Positions 1,732 to 15,762 of a DNA stretch of 64,000 nucleotides are shown piece after piece. Position 1 is the first letter of the stretch. Each line of letters begins with the position of its first letter. Source of the DNA: the human T2T-CHM13v2.0 reference genome, Homo sapiens. The notes beneath the pieces were generated by a model. That model was not told the DNA's origin. It worked only from the letters and a program-made list of their open reading frames with translations, and did not search any database. Made by a program: the position numbers and the translations under genes. Where the stretch lies: the NCBI RefSeq assembly GCF_009914755.1, contig NC_060935.1; one strand, written 5' to 3'.

Positions 1732-2644
1732 GCTGGCTCCTGCTCTTGCCTCTTGCTGAAGGAGCTCAGGCAGAGCGGTCGGAGAGCAGAGACCCTCCCT
1801 GGGGAGTGTGCCATTTGCCCAGAGAACCGCAGGGTGTCCTGGAACAAGGTGCAGATTGGGCTTGCACCGGGAGGGCTGCATGCAGAGCCTCAGGGAGGCT
1901 GGCTCTGCTCTTTGATTTTCCCACCCCCAACCAGGGAGGCGCCCTCAGAACACCAAGCCACGGGCGAGGCTCCTCTGTCTCTTCCTTCTTTCTCTTGACT
2001 CTCGACCTTCCTCTGCTTCCTTTATTTTCATTCACATCCTCCATTTGTACATCTGTGGCTCTTTGCAGGCATCTTCAAGTTCTTCTTCCATCTCTTTCCC
2101 TTATCACCTTTTACTTTCCCAAATCTCCCAGGCAGGAGCCCCACTCCTCCAGCCCTCCACTTACCAGGGCTAACTCAGACTCTTTTATTAAGGGGAACAT
2201 CCAGTGTCAAACTCTCCCATGCCTCTCTCATTCAACAAGCTCAGTTTGGTCTGCGTTAGAGAGCCATGTGCCTAGAAGTGTGTGTGTTTTGCTAATTGTA
2301 AATCACATATGAAATCTACATCCTGAATCAAAAAATTGACTGCAAACTTTGTGTCTGAAAGAGACCAAACTTTTTGTCCTCAAGCAACCTGTACCTTGGA
2401 AATGACAAACACTCCTCGTGGTCGTCTGATCCCAGATCATTGCGGAGTTTTTAGAAAACACTCTAAGTTCTATTTAAATTTATTGCTTGGCATTTCTGGG
2501 ACACAGAATAATCTCTTCTGCCAACCTATAAATTCATTTAAAATCTGTGCTTTCCCCTGAAAAATCATAATAACCAAAAGAACCAATAACAATGCTATAA
2601 TTAATTATTATTTCTATTAAAAGATAGGGCTTATTTTTTTTCCT

Positions 2645-2695
2645 ACCCTGTCTCTACTAAAAATACAAAAATAGCTGGGTGTGGTGGCAGGCACC
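2645..2695 (+). mobile_element. Very short Alu linker fragment
   Basis: accctgtctctactaaaaatacaaaaatagctgggtgtggtggcaggcacc. Confidence 0.85.
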
Positions 2696-2847
2696 ACCAC
2701 GATTTAGGTGACATTCTAGGAGCAGTATTTCTACAGCTCTGTTAATCACCCTTCATCTGTCAATCAGAGGGAACTCCTTCTCTGCTTTTAACTAACAAAA
2801 ACCCAGTAATAAAACTCGGACTCCCAGGGGACGCATGGCTCGCTTAC

Positions 2848-2907
2848 CTGCGGATTTTAGGTTACCCGGGGAGCTGTTATGTTGTGTCTGAGGGGGAAAT
2901 AATCTAT
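2848..2907 (-). CDS. Candidate alternative 60-nt cassette exon of OPCML (20-aa insert DRLFPPQTQHNSSPGNLKSA)
   Basis: ~65-nt pyrimidine tract + ttcag| acceptor, CAG|gtaagc donor. Length is a multiple of 3, and only the phase-1 frame is free of stops. No transcript evidence available. Confidence 0.5.
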
Positions 2908-4147
2908 CTGAACAGAAATTAAGAAAAAATAAGAAAGAAAAAAAATTAAAAGAAAGAAGAATTGAAAGAGAGGGTACAAATATCTATTACAACGATATCA
3001 TCTTCTAAAGCTGTTTATGATAAAAAGAGGATTTGGTAGCTTGTATCTCAGCTATATTAAATTAAATCCAAGATCCCTTTCCCAGACACACACAGGCCTG
3101 AAAACATCAATCCTGTCACGACAAACTAGCCCCTGGGAAAAGGAATCCTCCTGGCAGTGTGCCACCGACCCTTATAAACTGTTAACCGTGGTAATGAACC
3201 AATCCAAGAGACATATTAATAATGACATGAAGAGACACATTTATTGTTGATTGTTGGGATGGTGGCAGATTTATTGCCAGCTTGCCAGGAGGGAGGGCTT
3301 GGCCCAGCAATGGTACAATTAAAAACAAATTGAATACAGGGACAAAGAATCAATAATCTAACAGAGCAACTTTTAGTTTGCAAAATACAAATATAAATTA
3401 ATTGACCTGAACACAGTTGCTAACTGGTCATTAATGTCTGCTTACTGGCCAATCGGAGCACATAATCCATCCCATTAAATTGATTGCAGCAGGCTGGGTC
3501 CCTGCACTTCCAGCTCTGCCTGCCAGGGCAACCATCAGGGCACCTTGTTTAGGGGTGATTTTTGACACCGCTAAAGCAAAGTGACTGTGTTAGAAATTTT
3601 CCCCAGAAGCCCTAAATTAAGGAATTCTTTTTAAGGTTTCACTAAGAACTTCTTTATTCAACAGGCATGTTTTCAATGCTACAGTGTACAGTGATCTGTC
3701 CCAAGGGAAAGGACTTGAAGGGAATAAATCCATGCTGGACGTGGCTTTTCATGATGTGGCTACCAATATCTCCCCCACTAAGCTGCCCTTTGAGATGCTT
3801 ATTTATTCCTAAGAATAACTGACATTTTCCCTCAATCTTTCCTAAAATCTTAAAAGCATATTTAAGACATTTTGCTATTATTTTTATGGATTAATAACCT
3901 TTTATATGAATTTGTGAAAGAGAGACTTCTATGGTCATGCCAATTCAGATTGCTATCCCTAAGCTGTGCCTCTGTGAAAAATTATGGAGCCACCTCCTCT
4001 GGCTTGTCTTCAAGGAAATTACAGTCTAGGAGAGCAAGAGAGTTACATCCACCAATAACTGAAATTTGAAACAAAAAGCTACAGGTATCACAAGGAAGTA
4101 CAGGTAAAGTGGCAGCTGGAATTTTTTTAAAAAGCCCTAGCAACTCT

Positions 4148-7422: not shown

Positions 7423-8371
7423 ACATATTTGTGGGTAATGGGATGGAATTCCAGAGGCCACGGAGGAAATAGCCATAAACCCTATAAAAACTGTGTGAGC
7501 GTGTGTGTGGAGTACAGAAGAAACAGACAAAACCCATGAAAACTGTGTGCGTGTAAGAGTGTGTGTATGTGTGAGTGCGTGAGTATGTCTGTGAGTGTGT
7601 GTATGTGTACGTGGTGTCTGTGTGTGTCTTAGTTGCAAAGCAAAGCAGAACAAAGCCCCACATGTATCTTCACAACAGTGGGAGAAAAGGCCTGATACAA
7701 GGAGAAATCTGTTTTTTTTTCTTTTTTTATAAACTGTGTTGTGAACTGTGTTGTCACCAACCACACACAATGTCATGAAAGGTCACAATCTAGGAGACGC
7801 GTGAAGGTCAACGTCAATTATACTCTGGCTACGCAAGGTGTCATATTCGTTAATATCTGAGAAACACAGTAGTCTGAGAGCCGGGATAGGACCACGGCAT
7901 GGTGGGGTGAGTGTGGCCTTGCTCTAACCCTGAGCGCAGGGGGCGGGGCAGGTGCAGAAGGTGGTGTGGGGACACCCTCCCAGTGAAGGGAGACTTGAGA
8001 TCCCTTCCTTTATGTGTTATAGAGGGTATTCTGGACAGTAACTTCATTCTTGATTCCTTCTGTGTTGTAGTTGCCTTCTTAGTTAGCCTAACTCTTCCAT
8101 AAAGCATGTGTATGTATACACATATACATATATACACCTCAAACATTGAACATGTATATGTGTATATCCAAGCATATATATGTGTATCTTTATATACTCG
8201 TATACATATATATGCTTGATGTTTGATGATTTCTCCATTGATCAGGTCTCTTCTCCCATTGTTGTGAGGAGAAATATGTTGGTTGTTCTGCTCTGCTTAG
8301 GAACTAAGACATACAGAGGTACCACGTACACACTCACACTCACGAATGCCCTCACACATACACGCACTGTT

Positions 8372-11130: not shown

Positions 11131-12750
11131 TGCCTGGAATTTGTGTTATCCTTTTAGAACAATCTCTTAGCTTGTCACATCGAGGACCCTCTCCCCTCAG
11201 GGACCTTTCCTCCATGACTGTCCTCTCCGAGTCATCTGGACATAGTCTGACTTCCCTGCCACCTGTATCTGCAGGAAGATGCTTTATGATCGCTGTGTTC
11301 CTATGCCACTCCAGTAGCAACATCAATCTGCTTCTGCTCATTGTACAAACATTTGCTGAGTGCCTACTGTGCCTCAGACGGTGTGCTAAGTGCTGAGGTT
11401 GGATATAAATAAATTATGATTCTTACTGTTATCTACGAATAGTTAACCTCAGAACATTTACCTACTCTCCAGCCAGGAAATTCATGCTGAATCTCAAATA
11501 TGCCCTTTCTGGTGTTAGGTTACACCTGTTCCCTAGTTCTGCAACATCTGTGTAATGTTTGTGTGTTGTTTATCTCTAGACCTCGTAAGCCCAAAGCTGT
11601 TCTTTCCGAGTGGCATAGGATCGTATCTCCCCAATCACTAGCATTTCTCCAAACTAAAAAATCTGGGTGATATCATTTTAATTCTTCCTCTTTCCAGGTA
11701 TGAGGATGAATGCTCTCAGTTTCCTGTGGACAGTGCCTCTCAGGCACCTCTGGATCTTTTCAGGTAGGCCCACGGTCACCCTGGCTGCACTGCTTAGCGG
11801 GGATGGGAGTCACTCCTGCCTGCGCTTGTGCCTCCAGCTTCTCCCGCTTTAGCTCCTGCTCTGCGGGGCTGCCAGGCTGATTTTCCCCCCAACTAATCCG
11901 ACCCCACAGCTGAGCATCCCCCTTGCTCCGGATTTCCTCCACACTGAGGTGTGCAGCCTAGATCACATTATCACATGCTCACACGGTGCCTGTGCTGATC
12001 CCCTCAGTGGCTGAGATGTACCTCAGGTATCAGTGACACGATTTTAATGAAGGCAGCTTCTGTTCTCAATGAGAAGGATTTGGAAATTAGTTCCATCAGA
12101 TATGTGGCAAAGGCTGCCTTCTACAACAGGAAAGGGCAGGCAGGAAAGTTGGTGGCAGAGTGTCTCTCAGGCGCTCCCATGGCAGGAGGGATAAAGCTGA
12201 GTCCCTTAGGCGTGCACTCCCTTCTGCTGATGGCATCTGGTTGGCAGAAGAAATGAGATACCCACCTTCTCAAATGGACAGAAGATACATAAACACCTTT
12301 TGTTTTTATAAACAGACAAGTGGCAGCTCGGAAATTTTTCTGTTTTCTCTCATTGCAAAATCAATACCCATCAGCAGTTTGAAATTAAAGGCAAGATTAG
12401 GCCTCAGTTTTATACATGCCTTATTGTCTTCCAAAAGCTTTCTACTCAGTCAGATAAATTTTCTTTAAGAGGATTAGGAAACTTTCATTATCTTTATCTA
12501 ACCTGAACTAACACTATGTCTGAAAAATTAATCTATAGACTGGACAAAAGCTGATGCTGCTGGGAGAAGAACTCTGGGGCTTCTTTCTAACTGAGTAGTG
12601 GGGTCTCTACATCCACCCTCTGGTAATTCAACTGTCTTCCAAAGAAAGAGCAAGTCACTGGATCACTAAGCAAGAGGAAATAATTCAGCTTTCTGATCTC
12701 CTTCTCTGTGGCCTCTCAGTAAAGGTACAAACCAGCCTGCCAAGGATCCC

Positions 12751-13277: not shown

Positions 13278-15529
13278 TCCCACCCCCACCCATCCTGACT
13301 GCCTCTGGACTTCCCAGGCCACCTCAGAGGGCTGGAGCCAGAGAGTAGCTTGGCCTGGAATGCGGAGACTGAGGAGCTGACCTCTGAAATAGATGCCATG
13401 CTGTCCTTAGACTTTTTCTGACCTGAAGCTTGGAGGTCCACAGGGAGACCCCACAGGCTGCCACATCCCACCCAAGGGATCGCTCAGCATGTGTTATGGA
13501 GAACATCCTTCTCTGTTGCTCAGCCCCCAGCCCATTATGTTGTGCATTGACTTTGATTTGCTTATATCATCTATCTTCGTTCTTGAAAAGGGATAGGCTT
13601 GCTCTGTTTGAGTCTGTTTCTCTACAGTGCCTGACAGTTCTTTTTTATTTCGGTGCCACATTTCCTGAATTTGAAAATAACTTTGCTGTCAAGGCCACAG
13701 AGGTGCCACTGAGGTGGCACTTCCGATGCCGAGAATGTCAGCTCCTCTGGAACCAAGCCCAGGTGCAGGCAGGTGGGGTAGTGAGAGCTCACAGTCTTTT
13801 GTTTTCTACACCCTCAGAAACGTTCAACAGATAGCCCAGCTCATCTCCGATGACTGATCTCACCAAGTGCCTCTGTCGTCCTCTGAGGAGAAGTATCAGA
13901 TGTGACAGTTGTCTTGATCTCCAGATGGCAGGCAGTCTTGTCACTCCAGAGCTGTGGGTGGACGTGTATGGAGAGTGGAAACCCGCAGCATCTGTAGATG
14001 TCTGTCGGATGGCGTGTGTGAACGCCTGAAAGCACGCGAGGAGGGGAGCAGGGCTTGGAGGCTGGGCAGGAGCAAAGCTTCAGGCAGCATGGCAGTGCCA
14101 AGGACTGCTGGGGAACAGCAGTGACAGCAGACAGCTCTCTGGCCCCACACATGCCATTACAAATGGCTACAGAGGCAGGCCTGGCTGCTTGCGCCAAAAG
14201 GAAAGAATGGGCAACCTGAATCATGCAAGTGACTGAAGCATGAATAGACAGCCCCCACGCAACCTCTCTCTAGGAAACCAATTGAAATGAGCAACATCGT
14301 GGTCCTTTTTTTTTTTTTTTTTAAATCAGAGATGAGGAATCTATCTTAGCTAAGCAAGGATGCCATACACATTTCACAAACTAAAAAAAAAAAAAAAATT
14401 CTGTTGGATCTATGACAGATGGGATCTGATAAAAGGCAGATGCTAAAGACTAAATCACACATAGGGACCCTTTCTGAGAGCTCACTGTGTTTCCTCAAGA
14501 TATCTGCAAACGAGGCTCTGAAAGAAGTCCACCCGAACCTTTCATTTGGTGGAGGAAGGATGCATCACTGGCTGACGGAACTAATGTGCTTACAACTTCA
14601 TTCCTGCCGTGAGCCAACACCTGACAGAAATGGCTTTACATGGTGATGATAGTTGGGGTCAAGTTCAAAATAAGTTCATTTGGATTGCTGCCTTGCTTTA
14701 AAATGGTTCTCAAATTCTTGGAACTGCTATCTGCATGTGTTTTTAATTCTTAATATTTAATATCTGAGAATCTGACATTTCTTCAGCCCCATTTTTGAGG
14801 TGTAATATGAAATTTAAATTAAAAACTATTTTAAAATGCACGTGACACAATTCCTGGGCTATGTCGATTCAAGTTTTTAAAGGAGAATGGAAGAAGATGC
14901 TAAGTCTTCCTTCCTCCTTCTCCCTTTTTAAAATTGTCTGAATTTATTACTAACATTAACCTGCAGATATCATTCTGACTAATATCCCTCTTGGATCTGG
15001 ACTTCATTGTCTGGCTATGAGAGAGTGTTTAAAGACAGCAGCAATGCCAGGGAGGACCTGCCTAAACAGCACTCAGAGACCCCTCCAGAGCATGCATGAC
15101 CAGCAACTGTGCGAAAACAGTCATGTCACGTAGTTTCTCATTGGCATTATTCGTCTTTTATCATGAAATAAGCCTATAAGAGAATTAAAAGGCACTGAGA
15201 GTAGTACTGTATTTATCTATGTTTGCATGTATCTCACTCCAGCTCCAGAGTGCTAAGTAACTTACGAGAGCTCAATACGAGTGCATGTTACACAACGTAT
15301 TGATGAGAACAGAAGGACTAGAGATAACATTTAGAAACTTTGAGAAGATATTCAGCACTTAGTTAAGTACCCATTCGATGGGAAACATTCCAAGACATAT
15401 AGTCAAACTCTGAATTCAGTAGAGGAAGATGACTTTTGTGTCTTCGCACACAGGTAGAACAAACACCAACACTGTTCTTCCCCTCCATCACTGACGGGAA
15501 TGGCAACCCCAGATCCAGCTGGGACTTAC

Positions 15530-15762
15530 CTTGCACTATTAGGTGAACCCGGGACGTTTTGGGATGATTGTCTGTCTGCACAGAGCAGGTGTACGGACCT
15601 TCGTCATACACATCCACATTTTGGATCATGATGCTGTACTGGGTTGGTGTATTGACCAGGATGATCACACGAGGGTCTATGGACCACTTGTCATTCCCAG
15701 CGTAGAGGATGGTGCTGCGGTTTAGCCAGGCCACCCGGGTTACCCGGTCATCTATGGTACAC
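15530..15762 (-). CDS. OPCML: Internal coding exon of OPCML (OBCAM, IgLON family), most of Ig-like domain 1
   Basis: 233 nt. Translates (R)[77 protein letters not shown](V). Acceptor: pyrimidine tract + ctgcag|G (AG at 15764-15763, phase 2). Donor: CAAG|gtaagt (GT at 15529-15528, phase 1). DDR and [19 protein letters not shown] distinguish OPCML from the paralogue NTM (recalled sequences). Confidence 0.97.

What the first reader, a model, noticed from the sequence alone, without database searches (positions are those of the whole stretch)
2848..2907. Candidate in-frame 60-nt OPCML cassette exon that would lengthen the Ig1-Ig2 hinge by 20 aa
Seen, on the OPCML strand: ...ctctctttcaattcttctttcttttaattttttttctttcttattttttcttaatttctgttcag | ATAGATTATTTCCCCCTCAGACACAACATAACAGCTCCCCGGGTAACCTAAAATCCGCAG | gtaagc. 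It has a long pyrimidine tract, a ~74-nt AG-free zone (2910-2983), a near-consensus donor and a length of exactly 60 nt. The upstream OPCML exon ends in phase 1 (CAA G|). In that phase the exon is open (G+AT=D, then RLFPPQTQHNSSPGNLKSA, exiting on G in phase 1), while both other frames hit stops (TAG, TAA). Several CpGs survive at 2817-2870 in CpG-poor DNA, and I recognise no repeat overlapping it. Established: this junction (HLIVQ|VPP) is the Ig1/Ig2 boundary, and IgLONs dimerise through Ig1. Inference: inclusion adds a Pro/Ser-rich spacer with an N-S-S sequon (followed by P, so possibly poorly used) that could change adhesion reach or geometry. I do not recall this insert from the canonical protein but cannot check annotation. 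Nearby alternative AGs (56-nt and 40-nt versions) would frameshift.
Basis: partly seen in the sequence, partly recalled or inferred. Interest (0 to 1): 0.8.

Follow-up and report, generated by a model that had tools for sequence, protein, structure and literature searches.

The report
Exon-like 60-nt stretch in OPCML intron
A 60-base stretch deep in a long intron of the human adhesion gene OPCML looks just like an in-frame extra exon, but no protein record or paper I could search uses it, so it is most likely a silent look-alike.

Summary
It is 60 nt at 2848-2907 (-). It has a 74-nt AG-free pyrimidine tract, the acceptor ttcag|AT and the donor CAG|gtaagc. It is open only in phase 1, and the Val codon of the next exon is kept.

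It lies 12.6 kb into a 127.8-kb intron. It is single-copy and hits no Rfam family.

In 264 kb around it, equally strong acceptor/donor pairs are as common on the antisense strand (6) as on the sense strand (7). About 7% of looser pairs are also frame-preserving. The splice signals and frame alone are therefore within chance for a 1.1-Mb gene. The overlap with one of three non-repeat CpG clusters is the only extra hint.

None of the 120 listed vertebrate IgLON protein models has the insert. No protein of 34-2000 aa in a 5.8-billion-sequence database carries the peptide. No paper mentions it.

RNA-seq and cross-species DNA could not be examined.

Verdict: most likely an unused or barely used pseudoexon (0.6). 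A real regulated hinge cassette remains possible (0.25).

The parts
2848..2907 (-). The 60-nt exon-like stretch. In phase 1 it reads D-RLFPPQTQHNSSPGNLKSA and leaves a G. It holds an N-S-S sequon followed by P.
2908..2983 (-). Acceptor AG (2908-2909) behind a 74-nt AG-free tract that is 82% pyrimidine. The tract has 7 TCTT motifs and branch-point-like yTnAy sites with A at -23, -39 and -12. On the + strand this is a low-complexity A-rich run (AAGAAA-type repeats).
2842..2847 (-). Intronic half of the donor, CAG|gtaagc. It matches the U1 consensus at 8 of 9 positions (consensus recalled). Its score ranks among the top 4 of 3295 GT on the minus strand of the window.
2808..2876 (.). Local CpG cluster of 5 CpG in 51 nt. 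GC is 53% in 2800-2899, against 23-40% beside it. The cluster spans the 3' half of the stretch and about 30 nt of intron behind the donor.
15530..15762 (-). Annotated OPCML Ig1 exon, the upstream splice partner, ending in phase 1 after HLIVQ.
   Evidence: and the hub's gene table

Best explanation
It is an intronic pseudoexon. A low-complexity pyrimidine run happens to end in CAG, and a near-consensus GT site happens to lie 60 nt further on. The stretch is not joined into mature OPCML mRNA, or only at noise level, and no protein with the 20-residue hinge insert is made in meaningful amounts. Shown: the signals, the frame, the absence from protein records and the antisense control. Inferred: the silence itself. 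A likely cause of that silence is the UCUU-rich tract, a typical binding site for the repressor PTBP1/2, together with the 115-kb distance to the next exon.
For: Four results support this reading.

(1) Background rate. In 264 kb around the site, pairs of 30-300 nt with both scores at or above the candidate's number 7 on the sense strand (including the real Ig1 exon and the candidate) and 6 on the antisense strand, where no OPCML exon can lie. At looser thresholds, 5 of 74 sense pairs and 5 of 62 antisense pairs are a multiple of 3 and open in phase 1. One such in-frame look-alike per few hundred kb is therefore expected, in a gene of about 1.12 Mb (hub table).

(2) No protein record.
- 0 of the 120 listed IgLON proteins from mammals, birds, reptiles and amphibians (474 passed E <= 1e-20) have a related insert after HLIVQ.
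- The 63-aa stop-to-stop read-through of 2795-2983 found nothing at E <= 10 among proteins of 112-2000 aa (39 word-sharing candidates).
- It found no candidate at all among proteins of 34-111 aa.
- Isoforms with inserts of similar size form their own clusters in that database. One is the 24-aa Ig1 insert of P0022 (23 members); another is the Ig3 insert of P0038. A hinge-insert isoform should therefore have been visible.

(3) No paralogous copy in NTM, LSAMP, NEGR1 or IGLON5. The protein search of the whole human assembly gives only the site itself below E = 0.03.

(4) The acceptor tract is a simple A-rich repeat on the + strand, a common chance source of acceptors.
Against: Three points speak against a pure chance look-alike.
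- The stretch overlaps one of only 3 CpG clusters (>= 5 per 60 nt) in the window that lie outside masked repeats; 7 such clusters exist in all. It is also a local GC peak. The real Ig1 exon shows the same kind of CpG enrichment (two clusters of >= 4).
- Its donor (7.60) scores above that of the real next exon (5.58), though its acceptor (5.74) scores below (6.95).
- It is the only one of the 13 strong pairs in 264 kb (7 sense, 6 antisense) that keeps the frame open.

Absence from protein databases cannot exclude a rare, cell-type-specific or recently evolved exon. My scoring uses recalled frequencies, not MaxEnt or SpliceAI.
Confidence: 0.6

Rival explanations
1. It is a genuine, regulated, in-frame cassette exon. 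In some neurons or stages, for example when PTBP1/2 repression is lifted, the 60 nt are spliced between the Ig1 and Ig2 exons. The result is an OPCML with a 20-residue Pro/Ser/Gln-rich flexible hinge behind the Ig1 dimerisation domain, which would change the reach or angle of IgLON dimers.
For: Strong donor and acceptor, long AG-free zone, and branch-point-like sites at -23 and -39. Exact frame preservation, with Val kept at the junction. It is the only frame-open pair among the 13 strong pairs in 264 kb. A CpG and GC peak lies on the stretch. Seven UCUU motifs lie upstream, as in PTBP-repressed neuronal exons (the link to PTBP is established knowledge, recalled). IgLONs dimerise head-to-head through Ig1 (passages of PMC13658817), so the hinge is a plausible place for regulation.
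Against: No protein model in any species and no database peptide. No paralogous exon. No mention in the papers searched. The antisense strand gives as many strong pairs. The PTBP2 knock-down supplement lists OPCML only at gene level (log2FC -0.46), with no splicing event in the files held as text; file 4 was cut when stored and file 1 could not be read.
Confidence: 0.25
2. The GC- and CpG-rich block at about 2808-2890 is a conserved non-coding element, either regulatory DNA near the RefSeq enhancer at 1793-2292 or part of an unannotated non-coding transcript. The splice-like signals and open frame are then incidental to it.
For: The CpG cluster runs about 30 nt past the donor into the intron and does not cover the AT-rich 5' third of the stretch, which fits an element not bounded by the exon. 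A RefSeq enhancer lies about 550 nt away (hub table).
Against: Nothing was found that defines such an element. There was no Rfam match at E <= 1 in 2300-3400 and no inverted repeat. Conservation was not testable. The hub table lists no other gene in the window.
Confidence: 0.1
3. It is a recursive-splicing exon, or a poison exon, used to process the 128-kb intron or to down-regulate OPCML.
For: The intron is long (127,827 nt). OPCML is named among human genes with a recursive splice site (review PMC8758631, passage seen).
Against: The acceptor is followed by ATAGAT, not GTAAGT, so no 5' splice site is regenerated. The stretch has no stop and no frameshift in the phase used, so it cannot trigger nonsense-mediated decay by itself. 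Only the 56- and 40-nt versions would.
Confidence: 0.03

Closest known systems
Intronic pseudoexons of long human genes (exon-sized stretches with good splice-site matches that are not spliced). The concept is recalled from the splicing literature and was not read here.
   Same: Deep intronic position (12.6 kb from the upstream exon and 115 kb from the next). Good consensus sites. The same frequency on the antisense strand. No transcript-derived protein record.
   Different: It keeps the reading frame and sits on a local CpG/GC peak, which most pseudoexons do not.
Mini-exon meB of the LAR-type receptor phosphatases (PTPdelta/PTPsigma/LAR), a splice insert in the Ig2-Ig3 linker that sets trans-synaptic partner choice. 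PMC4423211 and PMC6078854 were seen only as search listing and abstract.
   Same: It would be an alternatively spliced insert exactly at a junction between two Ig domains of a neuronal adhesion molecule.
   Different: meB is 4 residues, conserved and experimentally shown. This one is 20 residues, with no expression or conservation evidence.
The known OPCML/IgLON alternative insert EISPSSAVA between Ig3 and the GPI signal (354-aa versus 345-aa forms).
   Same: A short in-frame Pro/Ser-rich insert in a linker of the same protein. It is visible in many species' models (P0003, P0014 and P0015 at 354 aa, against P0010 at 345 aa).
   Different: That insert is present in hundreds of database members (clusters of 378 and 155). 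The hinge insert is present in none.
Alternative 5' exons and promoters of OPCML (v1-v6; 1a/1b promoters). PMC2500176 and PMC5288359, passages read.
   Same: The same gene. This is the documented source of OPCML isoform diversity.
   Different: All described variants differ at the 5' end. None touches the Ig1/Ig2 junction.

Membership tests
Alternative cassette coding exon of OPCML | Canonical AG...GT borders with a pyrimidine tract and a usable branch point | tested here: met
   acceptor score 5.74 (58 of 4379 AG as good or better), donor score 7.60 (4 of 3295 GT), yTnAy at -23 and -39. The scoring frequencies are recalled.
Alternative cassette coding exon of OPCML | Length and phase keep the frame of both flanking exons, with no stop | tested here: met
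   60 nt, enters in phase 1 and leaves in phase 1, no stop, Val codon restored.
Alternative cassette coding exon of OPCML | Presence in a transcript or protein record (cDNA, RefSeq, Gnomon, Ensembl, UniProt isoform) | tested here: not met
   0 of the 120 listed proteins (474 passed the cut-off); no protein of 34-2000 aa with the peptide. The other 7 RefSeq transcripts of the hub table could not be read directly.
Alternative cassette coding exon of OPCML | Splice-junction reads in RNA-seq or long reads | not testable with these tools
   No expression data on hand. The supplements of two brain splicing papers gave no OPCML event.
Alternative cassette coding exon of OPCML | Conservation of the sites and the frame in other species | not testable with these tools
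   No vertebrate genomes are held. Indirectly, no species' model has it.
Recursive splice site / RS-exon | Acceptor AG directly followed by GTRAGT, so that a 5' splice site is regenerated | tested here: not met
   cag|ATAGAT.
Poison (NMD) exon | Brings a stop codon or a frameshift | tested here: not met
   open and 60 nt. Only the 56- and 40-nt versions from the internal AGs would shift the frame.
Exonised transposable element (Alu, MIR, L1, L2) | The stretch or its splice sites lie in a repeat copy | tested here: not met
   2700-3000 matches only itself in the 3.1-Gb assembly. The nearest repeat is a roughly 50-nt Alu fragment at 2645-2696. The stretch is not in the hub's masked list. Very old repeats could escape this search.
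PTBP1/2-repressed neuronal exon | UCUU/CUCUCU-rich tract at the upstream 3' splice site | tested here: met
   7 TCTT and 1 CTCTCT in the 78 nt printed upstream (which include the acceptor AG); the 76 nt before the AG are 82% pyrimidine.
PTBP1/2-repressed neuronal exon | PTBP binding (CLIP) and a rise in inclusion on PTBP loss | tested here: inconclusive
   the supplement of PMC10164156 holds OPCML only in a gene-level table (log2FC -0.46, padj 1.7e-14). File 4 was cut when stored and file 1 could not be read.

The most novel reading that the evidence does not exclude
An unannotated, PTBP-gated, neuron- or stage-specific OPCML isoform carries a 20-residue flexible, possibly glycosylated hinge between the Ig1 dimerisation domain and Ig2. 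This would uncouple the otherwise rigid head-to-head IgLON dimer from the membrane-proximal domains and so tune cis versus trans pairing. It would be an IgLON counterpart of the LAR-RPTP linker mini-exons.
Probability: 0.12. Interest if true: 0.55.

Novelty: not a real feature. Interest (0 to 1): 0.2.

Why it matters
If real, it would be the first splice variant of any IgLON that alters the Ig1-Ig2 hinge. All solved IgLON structures are canonical forms (5UV6, 6U7N, 6DLF, 6DLD and others), and dimerisation goes through Ig1. OPCML is also studied as a tumour suppressor. As things stand, its main value is as a calibration case. A perfect-looking in-frame exon in a 128-kb intron is what chance gives once or twice per megabase-sized gene. 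Such a stretch remains a place where a single variant, or loss of a repressor, could switch on a cryptic exon.

Tried and rejected
- The 19-aa peptide was too short for the protein search. I re-sent the window's own 63-aa stop-to-stop frame 2795-2983 to the same tool; nothing was found.
- I ran tblastn with every non-canonical continuation after HLIVQ of at least 12 residues, taken from the 120 listed models, against the window. I ran five of them against the whole intron. None maps to 2848-2907. The cat (P0034) and sheep NTM (P0084) hinge inserts are unrelated to this one, and their insert parts gave no match in the human intron.
- Retro-insertion or transposable-element origin: rejected at the sensitivity.
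- Known RNA family: none.
- Recursive splicing and poison exon: rejected on sequence.
- Papers: eight full-text searches and passages of PMC5288359, PMC2500176, PMC8758631 and PMC13658817 gave no such exon.
- Sibley et al. 2015 could not be opened under a PMC id I recalled or under its DOI.
- The supplements of PMC10164156 and PMC13059442 gave no OPCML splicing event. One file in each could not be read, and one file of PMC10164156 was cut when stored.
- Folding the insert-bearing protein was not attempted, because it needs a joined sequence.

Full report
**What is there.** On the minus strand, which is the OPCML strand, the window reads ...ctctctttcaattcttctttcttttaattttttttctttcttattttttcttaatttctgttcag | ATAGATT...ATCCGCAG | gtaagcgag. 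The middle part is 2848-2907, exactly 60 nt. The nearest AG upstream of the acceptor is at 2984-2985, so 2910-2983 is free of AG (74 nt).

- The annotated Ig1 exon (15530-15762) translates to CTIDD...SRVHLIVQ and leaves one G before gtaagt, which is phase 1.
- With that G, the 60 nt read D RLFPPQTQHNSSPGNLKSA and again leave a G. The two other frames hit stops.
- I located the next OPCML exon in the same assembly at chr11:132,567,577-132,567,702 (126 nt). It begins TTCCTCCTCAG, so G+TT restores Val of VPPQIM.
- The five CpGs are at 2868, 2852, 2842, 2833 and 2818. The internal AGs that would give 56- and 40-nt versions and the N-S-S-P sequon are all present.

**Where it lies.** The intron between the Ig1 and Ig2 exons is 127,827 nt long. 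The stretch lies 12,622 nt behind the Ig1 donor and 115,145 nt before the Ig2 acceptor.

**Is it more than chance?** I scored all AG and GT sites with a simple position-weight scheme. Its frequencies are recalled consensus values, not MaxEnt, so the scores are only a ranking device.

- In the window, the candidate's donor (7.60) is among the best 4 of 3295 GT on the minus strand. Its acceptor (5.74) is among the best 58 of 4379 AG.
- Pairs 30-300 nt apart that reach both scores number 2 on the minus strand, the true Ig1 exon and the candidate, and 0 on the plus strand.
- This looked striking, so I widened the control to 264 kb: the window, the rest of the intron, and 80 kb on the other side. 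There the counts are 7 pairs on the sense strand and 6 on the antisense strand, where no OPCML exon can be.
- Of these, 2 sense and 1 antisense are multiples of three. Only the candidate is open in phase 1.
- At looser thresholds, 5 of 74 sense and 5 of 62 antisense pairs are frame-preserving and open, about 7%.
- A long AG-free zone is not rare among strong acceptors: 13 of 237 sense and 9 of 259 antisense.

Exon-like pairs of this strength thus occur about once per 50 kb per strand regardless of strand. An in-frame one is expected roughly once per several hundred kb, that is once or twice in a 1.12-Mb gene. The splice signals and the frame do not by themselves exceed chance for a scan that reads many windows.

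**The one feature that stands out.** The stretch sits on a local CpG and GC peak: 5 CpG in 51 nt, and 53% GC in 2800-2899 against 23-40% beside it. Seven clusters of at least 5 CpG per 60 nt exist in the window. Four fall in stretches that the hub lists as masked repeats, and three do not: this one, 7789-7857 and 13976-14065. The real Ig1 exon shows two clusters of at least 4. The cluster here continues about 30 nt beyond the donor and does not cover the AT-rich first third of the stretch, so it is not shaped like the exon.

**Origin.** The region 2700-3000 matches only itself in the 3.1-Gb assembly. The nearest repeat is a roughly 50-nt Alu fragment at 2645-2696. The pyrimidine tract is a low-complexity AAGAAA-type run on the plus strand. 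No Rfam family matches 2300-3400 at E <= 1. A six-frame protein search of the assembly with the 63-aa stop-to-stop frame gives only the site itself below E = 0.03. NTM, LSAMP, NEGR1 and IGLON5 therefore hold no sister exon.

**Records of use.**
- A search with the Ig1 exon peptide among longer proteins returned 474 proteins at E <= 1e-20. The best 120 were listed: OPCML, NTM and CEPU-1/OBCAM models from mammals, monotremes, birds, reptiles and amphibians, from NCBI, nr and UniRef.
- I looked at what follows HL[IVT]V[QK] in each. None has this insert or shares a 4-mer with it, except one chance RLFP in an intron read-through.
- The non-canonical continuations are intron read-throughs, exon skips or unrelated species-specific inserts (cat P0034, sheep NTM P0084).
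- None maps to 2848-2907.
- The 19-aa peptide was too short for the protein search, so I searched with the window's own 63-aa open frame across it. Among proteins of 112-2000 aa, 39 shared words but none scored E <= 10. Among proteins of 34-111 aa there was no candidate.
- The database is clustered at 90% identity, which could in principle hide an isoform. However, isoforms with a 24-aa insert (P0022, 23 members) or an Ig3 insert (P0038) do stand as separate clusters. A hinge-insert isoform in any well-annotated species should therefore have been seen.
- I could not read the other seven RefSeq transcripts of the hub table directly.

**Literature.** Searches combining OPCML with alternative splicing, isoform and exon (one search), and with cryptic exon, recursive splicing, cassette exon and novel exon, gave no description of an exon at the Ig1/Ig2 junction. 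Neither did a search for a 9-residue piece of the peptide.

- Passages of PMC2500176 and PMC5288359 describe only 5' variants and twin promoters.
- A review (PMC8758631, passage) names OPCML among genes with a recursive splice site. The acceptor here is followed by ATAGAT, so it cannot regenerate a donor.
- The supplement of a PTBP2 study (PMC10164156) lists OPCML only at gene level (log2FC -0.46 on knock-down).
- Another brain-splicing paper's supplements had no OPCML entry.
- In each paper one file could not be read, and in PMC10164156 one file was cut when stored. These may bear on the question.

**Reading.** The most likely explanation (0.6) is a pseudoexon: a chance acceptor at the end of a simple pyrimidine run, plus a chance strong donor, that the spliceosome ignores or uses at noise level. 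The silence itself is inferred, not shown. A plausible cause is repression through the seven UCUU motifs (PTBP binding to such tracts is established knowledge, recalled), together with the isolation of a 60-nt unit in a 128-kb intron.

The main rival (0.25) is that it is a real, tightly regulated cassette. Ig1 is the domain through which IgLONs form head-to-head dimers (IgLON5 cryo-EM, passages of PMC13658817). All solved IgLON structures are canonical forms.

A third reading (0.1) is that the CpG/GC block is a non-coding conserved element near the RefSeq enhancer at 1793-2292. Recursive-splicing and poison-exon readings fail on sequence.

**Comparison with known things.** If real, it would work like the linker mini-exon meB of LAR-type phosphatases (seen as listing and abstracts only), or like the known EISPSSAVA insert of OPCML. 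It meets only the sequence-level criteria of a cassette exon. The record criterion was tested and not met. Expression and conservation could not be tested.

**Not done.** I examined no RNA-seq, SpliceAI or MaxEnt scores, or cross-species alignment. I made no fold of the insert-bearing protein, because it needs a joined sequence.

Noticed in passing
window 14585-14731 (-), also 12184-12282 (-): The continuation after HLIVQ of a Cebus imitator 'OPCML-like' model (P0035: DSSSENLRTVLKQGSNPNEF...) maps here at 67% identity (E = 4e-17). In human the frame reads DSSSKNLRTILKQGSNPNELILNLTPTIITM and then stops. It is preceded by acatgcag|ATAGCAG, which has a weak pyrimidine tract. If used, it would give an Ig1-only truncated product. 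It is another possible alternative exon, about 800 nt behind the Ig1 exon.
   Followed up: partly
L030:1677-2447 (-) = G000:C7:65,777,177-65,777,947, outside the window: An intronless 256-aa ORF begins MPPAAPGARLRLL... Its Ig1-Ig2 part is 80-90% identical to the chr19 IGLON5 exons and about 50% identical to OPCML. After about 240 residues the IgLON-like sequence breaks off, and the next part of the match lies in a separate, adjoining hit. It is a processed retrocopy of IGLON5 on chromosome 7. I did not check whether it is annotated.
   Followed up: partly
proteins P0030, P0032, P0049, P0009, P0011, P0020 and others: Proteins from metagenome-type sources (lgn, ena; contigs of 0.5-4 kb) hold the OPCML Ig1 exon and then read on into the intron. 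P0049 is 100% identical, and P0030 96% identical, to window 15366-15530 over 55 residues. This is host (human or other mammal) DNA predicted as microbial proteins.
   Followed up: partly
window 7789-7857 and 13976-14065: These are the two other clusters of at least 5 CpG per 60 nt that lie outside the masked repeats listed by the hub. I did not examine what they are.
   Followed up: no
G000:C11:132,586,700-132,586,937; 132,595,326-132,595,611; 132,792,865-132,793,053 (-): Other sense-strand acceptor/donor pairs reach the candidate's scores. The first donor has three possible acceptors. Two of these sites lie in the same 128-kb intron. The third lies in the intron upstream of the Ig1 exon; it is 189 nt, a multiple of 3, but not open in phase 1.
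   Followed up: no
window 2645-2696: A roughly 50-nt Alu fragment (ccctgtctctactaaaaatacaaaaatagctgggtgtggtggc...) lies 150 nt downstream (OPCML strand) of the candidate's donor. The first look found 745 word-sharing candidates in the genome.
   Followed up: yes
supplement file 4 of PMC10164156: OPCML mRNA falls on PTBP2 knock-down in the sheet PTBP2_vs_Unt (log2FC -0.46, padj 1.7e-14). OPCML-IT1 is unchanged.
   Followed up: no
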